This document shows, piece after piece, positions 42,001 to 43,799 of a stretch of DNA of 64,000 nucleotides. A program made the position numbers. Numbering within the stretch: position 1 is the first letter of the stretch; each line of letters opens with the position of its first letter. The stretch comes from Escherichia coli (GTDB taxonomy: Bacteria; Pseudomonadota; Gammaproteobacteria; Enterobacterales; Enterobacteriaceae): the NCBI RefSeq assembly GCF_003790525.1, contig NZ_CP033635.1; one strand, written 5' to 3'.

Positions 42001-43799
42001 TTGAAACCCGCGTCTTACCGGAAGTGAAGGCGGGTGATTATCTGGTACTGCATGATACGGGGGCATATGGCGCATCAATGTCATCCAACTACAACAGTCG
42101 TCCGCTGTTACCAGAAGTTCTGTTTGATAATGGTCAGGCGCGGTTGATTCGCCGTCGCCAGACCATTGAAGAATTACTGGCGCTGGAATTGCTTTAACTG
42201 CGGTTAGTCGCTGGTTGCATGATGACTTGCCTCCAGCGACGGAGTTGACACTGAATGGCGACGTACCAGCGTCGGACTAAAGACATTAGTGATTTCCGGG
42301 AGAGGGCGATTATCCGCCAGCGCCAAAGCCAGTTCGGCAGCCTGCGTCGCCATCGTCACGATTGGGTAACGCACGGTGGTCAGACGCGGACGCACATAGC
42401 GTGACACCAGCACATCATCAAAGCCAATTAACGAAATCTCACCCGGTACATCAATACCATTATCATTGAGAACGCCCATCGCGCCCGCCGCCATTGAATC
42501 GTTATAACAGGCTACCGCAGTGAAATTTCTTCCTCGTCCCAAAAGCTCGGTCATTGCCTGTTCACCGCCGCTTTCGTCTGGTTCGCCAAATGTCACCAGC
42601 CGATCATTGGTCGGAATACCACTTTCAGCAAGGGCATCGTAATACCCTTGCAGACGATCTTCGGCGTCAGAAATAGAGTGGTTAGAGCACAGATAACCAA
42701 TGCGGGTATGACCTTGCTGAATTAAATGACGCGTTGCCAGCCAGGCACCGTAACGATCGTCCAGAGCAATACAACGGTTTTCAAAGCCAGGCAGGATACG
42801 GTTGATCAGCACCATACCGGGCATTTGTTTCATTAATGAGGCTAAATCGGCATCCGGGATCATTTTGGCATGGACAACCAGCGCAGCACAGCGATGGCGG
42901 ATCAGTTGCTCAATGGCCTGACGCTCTTTTTGTTCGTTGTGGTAACCGTTGCCAATCAATAAAAAATTACCAGTGTGATAAGCCACCTGTTCGACCGCTT
43001 TCACCATTGCACCGAAAAACGGATCGGAAACATCACCAACGACCAGACCGACCGTTTCAGTGGTCTGCTGCGCCAGCGCACGGGCGTTGGCGTTCGGGTG
43101 ATAGCTAAGAGACTCCATTGCACTATGCACAGCAAGCCGGGAAGCTTCGCTGGCTTTGGGTGAATTATTAATGACGCGGGAAACGGTGGCGACTGAAACG
43201 CCTGCCAGTCGGGCTACATCCTTTATGGTCGCCATGAAAATACCTTAGTGGGTAAACGCTTACATTCTTTCAGTGTTACGGAAAACGCCCGTTGGTTCAA
43301 GGGGGGGCGTGTTTTCATCGTGGGAATGTGAGCCAAACGCAAATAAGTAAGACAAAAAAAGAGATTGCAAACCTTTGGTTACACTTTGCGAAACGCTGTT
43401 GCGATTGACCGCTGGTGGCGTTTGGCTTCAGGTTGCTAAAGTGGTGATCCCAGAGGTATTGATAGGTGAAGTCAACTTCGGGTTGAGCACATGAATTACA
43501 CCAGCCTGCGCAGATGCGCAGGTTTTTTTTTGCCGGTCATCAATCTGTAACAGTAACCGACAATTTACACACCTCGTTGCATTTCCCTTCATTCCTTTGC
43601 GTTTTCTCGCTGGCGAAGAGTCGTTGTGCAGACCACAATCAAGATCCCAGAGGTATTGATTGGTGAGATTATTCGGTACGCTCTTCGTACCCTGTCTCTT
43701 GCACCAACCTGCGCGGATGCGCAGGTTTTTTTTCGCACCTAATTTACTGTCGCTCGCGTTCTTTATCTCGTGTAATCTCCCTCCATTCGCTTTTACTGA

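What the first reader, a model, noticed from the sequence alone, without database searches (positions are those of the whole stretch)
43449..43733. Tandem paralogous sRNAs (OmrB and OmrA) in the galR-aas intergenic region
Two sRNA genes about 200 bp apart share an identical 5' seed (CCCAGAGGTATTGAT) and near-identical terminator hairpins but differ in the middle, as expected for the OmrA/OmrB pair. They are known, but would be missed by ORF-based annotation.
Basis: partly seen in the sequence, partly recalled or inferred. Interest (0 to 1): 0.3.

Follow-up and report, generated by a model that had tools for sequence, protein, structure and literature searches.

The report
OmrB and OmrA small RNA genes
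These are the two well-studied E. coli regulatory small RNAs OmrB and OmrA, sitting side by side between galR and aas just as in the reference strain, so the finding is correct but ordinary.

Summary
The observation and the interpretation both hold. The Rfam model RF00079 (OmrA-B) hits full-length at 43449-43530 (+, 86.1 bits) and 43646-43733 (+, 96.6 bits), against a gathering score of 40. The window is E. coli. The 585-bp galR-aas spacer differs from K-12 MG1655 at three positions, and MG1655 annotates omrB (82 nt) and omrA (88 nt) at exactly these places and in this order. OmrA is identical to the K-12 gene. OmrB has one extra T in its terminator tail.

Both copies share the 15-nt 5' end, extended to 24 nt with one mismatch. 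They share a near-identical intrinsic terminator and differ in the middle. Published promoter determinants are at the expected positions:
- PomrB has T-75 and A-68 in a GTTACA box, and -12T.
- PomrA has -12C (the sigma-S determinant), and its GTTGCA box lies upstream of -60.

The seed pairs in silico with the ompR ribosome-binding region. All 31 untruncated Enterobacterales loci found with the seed carry RF00079 hits, and four non-enterobacterial seed matches do not.

The locus is in 5423 of 5426 complete E. coli genomes. The automatically annotated RefSeq records I looked at do not annotate it. Novelty: already known. The only local peculiarity is a minority T allele at -21 of PomrA.

The parts
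42204..43235 (-). galR coding sequence (left flank, divergent from the sRNA genes)
   Evidence: ORF of 343 aa. Annotated as galR in matching E. coli records.
43370..43390 (+). PomrB upstream conserved box AACCTTTGGTTACACTTTGCG. It carries the OmpR/RstA-type half-site GTTACA (43378-43383, -71..-66) and the published T-75 (43374) and A-68 (43381).
   Evidence: Positions. Near-invariant across 21 Enterobacterales promoters. The T-75C/A-68G double mutation cut activation by pOmpR from 81-fold to 3.3-fold (PMC13425233).
43395..43407 (+). PomrB second conserved box GCTGTTGCGATTG (-54..-42)
   Evidence: Conserved block. The paper describes two conserved boxes in PomrB, one of them with no known binding partner. 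Which of my two blocks is B1 and which is B2 is my inference, anchored only on the published -75/-68 positions.
43437..43442 (+). PomrB -10 hexamer TAAAGT (-12..-7), with -12T
   Evidence: TAnAGT is conserved. The literature reports -12T as the reason omrB is sigma-S-independent (review PMC12692685).
43449..43531 (+). omrB (OmrB sRNA). The seed is 43449-43463, the central hairpin about 43472-43486, and the terminator stem-loop 43503-43524. The T tract is 43523-43531: 9 T here against 8 in MG1655.
   Evidence: RF00079 at 86.1 bits over model positions 1-87. Corresponds to K-12 b4445. Fold of -26.6 kcal/mol, z = -3.1. Terminator.
43545..43553 (+). PomrA distal conserved box CTGTAACAG (-101..-93)
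   Evidence: It lies inside the -114..-60 segment required for OmpR activation (PMC5175337). Its binding partner was not established here.
43564..43584 (+). PomrA conserved box TTTACACACCTCGTTGCATTT, with OmpR-like half-sites TTTACA (-82..-77) and GTTGCA (-70..-65)
   Evidence: It aligns with the GTTACA box of PomrB in the copy-to-copy alignment. A PomrA truncated at -60 is not activated by OmpR.
43589..43606 (+). PomrA conserved box TCATTCCTTTGCGTTTTC (-57..-40)
   Evidence: Its TTGCG core aligns with the TTGCG of PomrB.
43634..43639 (+). PomrA -10 hexamer CACAAT (-12..-7), with -12C
   Evidence: CCACAAT is conserved in 12 of 16 species. -12C is reported as the sigma-S specificity determinant of omrA (PMC12692685).
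43625..43625 (+). Single-base variant in the PomrA spacer (-21): T here, C in MG1655 and in the two other genomes sampled
   Evidence: Only 286 of 5406 genomes are at least 99% identical to the window over 43585-43665. The position lies in a stretch that is not conserved between species.
43646..43733 (+). omrA (OmrA sRNA). The seed is 43646-43660, the central hairpin 43675-43691, and the terminator stem-loop 43706-43727 with a T tract running to 43733.
   Evidence: RF00079 at 96.6 bits over model positions 1-87. 100% identical to K-12 b4444. Fold of -29.5 kcal/mol, z = -2.7. Terminator.
43821..45980 (+). aas coding sequence (right flank, same orientation as the sRNA genes)
   Evidence: ORF of 719 aa. 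Annotated as aas in matching records.

Best explanation
The region holds two independent, tandem, paralogous small-RNA genes on the + strand: omrB (43449-43531) and omrA (43646-43733). Each has its own activator-dependent promoter and its own intrinsic terminator.

The proposed mechanism is the published one. [quoted passage not shown]

The transcripts are bound by Hfq through the terminator hairpin and its U tail. Their shared single-stranded 5' end, CCCAGAGGUAUUGAU, pairs with the translation-initiation regions of many mRNAs. Examples are ompT, cirA, fecA, fepA, csgD, flhDC, flgM and dgcM. It also pairs with ompR-envZ itself, which creates a negative feedback loop. Pairing blocks translation and/or triggers decay.

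The divergent middle parts give each RNA a few private targets, such as btuB for OmrA.

Shown here:
- family membership and identity to the K-12 genes;
- synteny;
- the seed, the fold and the terminators;
- the presence and conservation of the published promoter determinants;
- in-silico pairing of the seed with ompR.

Taken from the literature and not tested here:
- actual transcription in this strain;
- OmpR, sigma-S and Hfq dependence;
- target repression.
For: - **Family.** RF00079 hits of 96.6 and 86.1 bits against a gathering score of 40, both full-length.
- **Identity to K-12.** The spacer matches MG1655 apart from three positions, and MG1655 annotates omrA (b4444) and omrB (b4445) at these places.
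- **Prevalence.** The locus is present in 5423 of 5426 complete E. coli genomes.
- **Repeat statistics.** Seed and terminator repeats are far above chance.
- **Structure.** Both copies have an intrinsic terminator and fold better than shuffles, with the 5' end unpaired (fully in OmrA, nt 1-6 in OmrB).
- **Covariation.** The terminator stem shows compensatory G-C to A-U and C-G to U-A changes across species.
- **Promoter determinants.** In PomrB, T-75, A-68 and -12T are at the published positions. In PomrA, -12C and a GTTGCA box upstream of -60 are too. These boxes are conserved in 16-21 Enterobacterales species.
- **Target pairing.** Seed nt 1-9 pair with ompR -19..-11, overlapping the Shine-Dalgarno sequence. 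The energy is -16.3 kcal/mol, reached by 2 of 1000 shuffled seeds. This agrees with PMC2588501.
- **Distribution.** All 31 Enterobacterales loci not truncated at the match carry RF00079 hits, while 4 non-enterobacterial chance matches to the seed do not.
Against: - Nothing of substance argues against it.
- The generic sigma-70 consensus scan finds no promoter upstream of either copy. That is expected for activator-dependent promoters with weak -35 elements, but it means the promoter assignment rests on positional agreement with published mutagenesis rather than on an independent motif score.
- No OmpR weight matrix was available, so OmpR-site quality was not scored.
- Expression in this particular strain is untested.
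- The strain carries a minority T at -21 of PomrA, and one more T in the OmrB tail than MG1655. The effects of both are unknown and probably nil.
Confidence: 0.97

Rival explanations
1. One of the two copies is a decaying, non-functional duplicate, so only one sRNA is really made.
For: Several Enterobacterales have a single Omr gene in this spacer. This is reported in PMC13425233 and seen here in single-hit loci such as L030, L031, L040, L071 and L083.
Against: - Both copies score far above the family threshold.
- Both keep a -10 element, upstream boxes, an intact seed and a terminator.
- OmrA is identical to the K-12 gene, and OmrB differs only by one extra tail T. In K-12 both are expressed and functional.
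- Both promoters are separately conserved across genera.
Confidence: 0.015
2. The elements are cis-acting leaders or attenuators of the downstream aas gene rather than free-standing trans-acting RNAs.
For: They are co-oriented with aas, and omrA ends only 87 nt upstream of the aas start codon. Synteny with aas is conserved, and aas follows the downstream copy in Pantoea too. Sub-threshold Leu_leader matches of 27.8 and 23.2 bits, against a gathering score of 50, appear over both copies.
Against: - Each copy ends in a strong 9-bp G+C-rich hairpin followed by 8-9 T.
- The Leu_leader matches are well below threshold and cover the terminators.
- The literature reports discrete ~80-90 nt Hfq-bound RNAs with trans targets verified by compensatory mutations.
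- Some read-through into aas cannot be excluded from the sequence alone.
Confidence: 0.01
3. The repeats belong to short protein-coding ORFs, for example 43375-43494 (39 aa), 43514-43666 (50 aa) or 43626-43742 (38 aa).
For: Mechanical ORFs overlap the region.
Against: - Between species the central parts differ by insertions and deletions of 1, 2, 5, 6 and 7 nt.
- The changes that are kept preserve stems, not reading frames.
- The conserved parts are the 5' end and the terminator hairpin, which is the pattern of an RNA gene.
- None of these ORFs is annotated in K-12.
Confidence: 0.005

Closest known systems
OmrA (RygA, b4444) and OmrB (RygB, b4445) of Escherichia coli K-12 MG1655; Rfam RF00079
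   Same: Same spacer (galR-aas), same order and orientation, and the same lengths. OmrA is 100% identical. OmrB is identical apart from the tail. Both promoters are identical from -114 to +1, apart from one base in PomrA.
   Different: There are three differences across the 585-bp spacer. These are G instead of T at 43305 (outside both genes), a 9-T instead of an 8-T OmrB tail, and T instead of C at -21 of PomrA, which is a minority allele among complete E. coli genomes.
Single or chimeric Omr genes of other Enterobacterales (for example 'OmrAB' of Erwinia amylovora; omrB promoter driving an OmrA-like transcript)
   Same: Same seed, same terminator and the same family model. According to PMC13425233, the omrB-type promoter is retained. 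In one search most single-copy loci keep the GTTACA box.
   Different: Those species have one gene. The window has the full two-gene arrangement with two diverged promoters.
Other sibling sRNA sets that feed back on their own regulator (Qrr1-4 of Vibrio, named as a parallel in PMC2588501)
   Same: Multiple paralogous Hfq-dependent sRNAs with a shared pairing region and a feedback loop on their own regulator.
   Different: They are unrelated in sequence, regulator and targets. The resemblance is in circuit logic, not in family membership.

Membership tests
OmrA-B sRNA family (Rfam RF00079) | Covariance-model score at or above the curated gathering score (40 bits), full-length | tested here: met
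   96.6 bits (43646-43733) and 86.1 bits (43449-43530), both over model positions 1-87 of 87.
OmrA-B sRNA family (Rfam RF00079) | Conserved 5' end CCCAGAGGUAUUGAU that serves as the pairing seed | tested here: met
   Exact in both copies. It is unpaired in the predicted fold of OmrA; in OmrB nt 1-6 are unpaired and the rest of the seed is partly paired. Its conservation in the fetched loci holds by construction, because they were found with this seed.
OmrA-B sRNA family (Rfam RF00079) | Rho-independent terminator hairpin with a U tail at the 3' end, which is the Hfq-binding module | tested here: met
   Each copy has 9 pairs, 6 of them G-C, a 4-nt loop and then 8-9 T. The stem shows compensatory changes between species. 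Hfq binding itself cannot be tested here.
OmrA-B sRNA family (Rfam RF00079) | [quoted passage not shown] | tested here: met
OmrA-B sRNA family (Rfam RF00079) | Sequence identity to the experimentally characterised K-12 genes | tested here: met
   OmrA is 88/88 identical. OmrB is identical apart from one extra T in the tail.
OmrA-B sRNA family (Rfam RF00079) | OmpR-dependent promoter upstream of each copy | tested here: met
   Tested at the sequence level only. PomrB has T-75 and A-68 within a GTTACA box. PomrA has a GTTGCA box at -70..-65, inside the -114..-60 segment needed for activation. The boxes are conserved between species. No OmpR matrix score was computed, and the generic sigma-70 scan found neither promoter. 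Actual OmpR binding and activation cannot be tested with these tools.
OmrA-B sRNA family (Rfam RF00079) | Copy-specific -10 determinants: -12C in omrA (sigma-S dependent) and -12T in omrB | tested here: met
   43634 is C and 43437 is T. Their significance is as reported in PMC12692685.
OmrA-B sRNA family (Rfam RF00079) | The seed base-pairs with the translation-initiation regions of target mRNAs, for example ompR | tested here: met
   Tested in silico only. Nt 1-9 pair with ompR -19..-11 at -16.3 kcal/mol, reached by 2 of 1000 shuffles, consistent with PMC2588501. The ompR sequence was taken from MG1655, not from this strain.
OmrA-B sRNA family (Rfam RF00079) | Hfq-dependent accumulation and repression of targets in vivo | not testable with these tools
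   Known from the literature for K-12.

The most novel reading that the evidence does not exclude
The copy-specific, deeply conserved promoter boxes may bind regulators that have not yet been identified. The boxes are CTGTAACAG at -101..-93 and TCATTCCTTTGCGTTTTC at -57..-40 of PomrA, and GCTGTTGCGATTG at -54..-42 of PomrB. If so, the two twins integrate different signals. The 2026 literature leaves the partner of the conserved PomrB box open. A lesser local variant of this reading is that the minority T at -21 of PomrA, seen in about 5% of complete E. coli genomes, changes OmrA output in this lineage.
Probability: 0.35. Interest if true: 0.3.

Novelty: already known. Interest (0 to 1): 0.08.

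Why it matters
There is no new biology here. OmrA and OmrB have been studied since the early 2000s. They are known regulators of outer-membrane proteins, iron uptake, motility and biofilm formation, and of their own activator OmpR.

The practical point is about annotation. None of the automatically annotated RefSeq records I looked at lists these genes, although they are present in 5423 of 5426 complete E. coli genomes. A scan that recognises them from raw sequence is therefore working correctly. The finding is useful as a positive control for the first-stage reader.

Tried and rejected
- **Sigma-70 scan.** It found no promoter upstream of either copy. I did not treat this as refutation, because these are activator-dependent promoters. 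I mapped the published mutagenesis positions instead.
- **Word search in Brosse 2016.** Searching for 'consensus', 'footprint' and 'OmpR binding site' returned nothing. That paper does not define a site. I used its -114/-60 truncation data instead.
- **No OmpR matrix.** None was available, so no quantitative site score was computed.
- They were repeated successfully.
- **Full-length duplex predictions.** These give large negative energies but ignore intramolecular structure. I disregarded them and used only the 15-nt seed result with its shuffle control.
- **Permissive Rfam search of the spacer.** It gave only sub-threshold matches to Leu_leader, MicX, SgrS and TeloSII_ncR49, mostly overlapping the Omr copies and their terminators. 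I rejected these as chance.
- **Seed scan of genome contigs.** Many hits were chance matches in unrelated phyla, as expected for a 15-mer in 298 Gb. Only the Enterobacterales loci were used. Four of the others served as negative controls.
- **L024.** This locus is cut 16 nt after the seed and could not be scored.
- **Central hairpins.** MAFFT alignments of the central regions are poor, so I make no covariation claim for the central hairpins beyond what searches list.

Full report
**Observation**

CCCAGAGGTATTGAT occurs exactly twice in the 64-kb window, at 43449 and 43646 on the + strand. With up to two mismatches allowed, 0.06 matches are expected by chance. The repeat finder extends this to 24 nt at 96% identity with a spacing of 197 bp. 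It also finds a second direct repeat of 38 nt at 89% identity that covers the 3' hairpins.

The hairpin-plus-T-tract pattern occurs only at 43505-43530 and 43708-43733, with zero expected by chance. Both were called intrinsic-terminator-like sites, each with 9 pairs, 6 of them G-C, followed by 8-9 T. The middle parts differ. Overall identity in my alignment is about 72%; the literature gives 68%.

**Identity**

A scan of the whole window against Rfam 15 gives two full-length hits to RF00079 (OmrA-B). They are 43646-43733 at 96.6 bits and 43449-43530 at 86.1 bits, against a gathering score of 40. The only other hit in the window is a tRNA.

The window is E. coli. The 651 bp around the finding match 5423 of 5426 complete E. 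coli genomes, and 5271 of those matches are at least 99% identical. The flanking genes are annotated galR and aas.

In K-12 MG1655 the curated record lists omrA (b4444, 88 nt) and omrB (b4445, 82 nt) between aas and galR. Aligning the 585-bp spacer to MG1655 shows three differences:
- G instead of T at 43305;
- one extra T in the OmrB tail;
- T instead of C at 43625.

**Structure**

Both RNAs fold better than their shuffles (z = -3.1 and -2.7). The 5' end is left single-stranded — the whole 15-nt seed in OmrA, nt 1-6 in OmrB, where the rest of the seed is partly paired. A central hairpin and the terminator hairpin follow.

To bring in relatives I scanned one genome per species for the exact 15-nt seed. 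A 15-mer also hits unrelated phyla by chance. I therefore ran Rfam on 32 Enterobacterales loci and on four non-enterobacterial loci as controls.

Every Enterobacterales locus except one that is truncated at the match (L024) has one or two RF00079 hits, 48 in all. The four controls have none.

In alignments of 23 OmrA-type and 19 OmrB-type sequences, the terminator stem keeps pairing through changes on both sides. G-C becomes A-U in 5 OmrA-type and 2 OmrB-type sequences, and C-G becomes U-A in 4 OmrB-type sequences. The central parts differ by insertions and deletions that are mostly not multiples of three, which argues against a coding reading. Seed conservation in this set holds by construction and is not evidence.

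**Promoters**

A generic sigma-70 scan finds nothing upstream of either copy. That is not surprising for activator-dependent promoters.

Published experiments give position-specific tests:
- OmpR-P activates both promoters in vitro on templates spanning -114 to +50, and a PomrA truncated at -60 is not activated (PMC5175337).
- In PomrB, the double change T-75C/A-68G in a conserved box reduces activation by pOmpR from 81-fold to 3.3-fold (PMC13425233).
- omrA carries -12C, reported as the determinant of its sigma-S dependence, while omrB carries -12T (review PMC12692685).

In the window every one of these positions agrees:
- -75 of omrB (43374) is T.
- -68 of omrB (43381) is A, within GTTACA at -71..-66.
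- The -10 elements are TAAAGT with -12T for omrB and CACAAT with -12C for omrA.
- PomrA has GTTGCA at -70..-65 and TTTACA at -82..-77, both upstream of -60.

The copy-to-copy alignment shows that the two promoters are themselves paralogous. The shared pieces are GTT(A/G)CA, TTGCG(A/T)TT and CGCTGG.

Across species I see two conserved blocks in PomrB and four in PomrA, besides the -10 elements. This matches the published description.

**Mechanism**

The mechanism is taken from the literature, apart from one in-silico check. Nt 1-9 of the shared seed pair with ompR mRNA at -19..-11, overlapping the Shine-Dalgarno sequence. The energy is -16.3 kcal/mol, reached by 2 of 1000 shuffled seeds. This is consistent with the compensatory-mutation work in PMC2588501.

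The proposed sequence of events is:
1. EnvZ-OmpR activates both genes.
2. Hfq binds the terminator and U-tail module.
3. The 5' end represses many envelope, iron-uptake, motility and biofilm mRNAs, and also ompR-envZ, which closes a negative feedback loop.

The diverged promoters and middle parts give each twin its own inputs and a few private targets.

**Rivals**

- A dead duplicate is unlikely, because both copies keep every functional element and match functional K-12 genes.
- A leader or attenuator of aas is unlikely given the strong terminators and the documented trans targets. Some read-through into aas cannot be excluded from the sequence alone.
- Small ORFs overlapping the region are not supported by the conservation pattern.
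- A permissive Rfam search of the spacer adds only sub-threshold chance matches.

**Strain-level detail**

Over 43585-43665, only 286 of 5406 genomes are at least 99% identical to the window. MG1655 and the two other genomes I sampled carry C at -21 of PomrA where the window has T. The position lies in a spacer stretch that is not conserved between species, so an effect is unlikely.

Over 43490-43570, which includes the OmrB T tract, 3095 of 5412 genomes are at least 99% identical. That fits a common 9-T tail, though I did not check the tract itself in those genomes.

**Annotation**

Four RefSeq records I inspected show no feature in the spacer. All 12 hits listed have 'none' under the match. 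The curated K-12 record has both genes.

**Verdict**

The feature is already known, and its interest is low.

Noticed in passing
window 2069-2142 (+) and roughly 4500-26300: A tRNA-Gly(CCC) gene is followed by a type III secretion gene cluster. By alignment to strain AR_0077 the cluster includes SctC, SctV, SctN, SctR/S/T/U, PrgH/EprH-type and YgeH (HilA-like) genes, and the window is 99.5% identical to AR_0077 there. This looks like the ETT2 island next to glyU, which from my own knowledge is largely deleted in K-12. I did not check whether the genes are intact in the window.
   Followed up: partly
window 26828-28158: A 1.33-kb insertion relative to AR_0077. It encodes an IS3-family transposase pair (HTH_Tnp_1 plus rve domains) and is IS2-like in size. 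The 5-bp overlap of the flanking alignments suggests a target duplication. The insertion point falls inside yqeK of AR_0077.
   Followed up: partly
window 38342-39763: A 1.42-kb insertion relative to AR_0077. It encodes an IS4 transposase (Nterm_IS4 plus DDE_Tnp_1). The insertion point falls inside ygeA (amino acid racemase), near its 3' end.
   Followed up: partly
window 47167-49021 (ORF 47205-48875, -): A 1.86-kb segment between lplT and tas is absent from AR_0077. It encodes a 556-aa DUF4140/DUF4139 protein.
   Followed up: partly
L033 2747-4879 (Pantoea stewartii); also L062 (Pantoea sp.): In Pantoea the two Omr copies are about 2 kb apart instead of 200 bp. In L033 a 579-aa class B penicillin-binding protein gene (PBP_dimer plus Transpeptidase domains) lies between them, and aas follows the downstream copy.
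   Followed up: partly
window 43545-43553: CTGTAACAG is an inverted repeat (CTGT-N-ACAG) 14 nt after the OmrB T tract, at -101..-93 of PomrA. It is identical in the 14 Enterobacteriaceae-type promoters aligned and is lost in Serratia and Edwardsiella. Its binding partner is unknown to me.
   Followed up: no
E. coli collection: Two of the 5428 places that match the galR-omrBA-aas spacer are on records labelled as plasmids, and three complete genomes have no match at all. Neither was examined.
   Followed up: no
L003 439-776 (MG1655 ompR region): The K-12 record annotates an antisense RNA, AsompR (b4842), that overlaps the ompR 5' region where OmrA/B pair. Any interplay between them was not looked into.
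   Followed up: no
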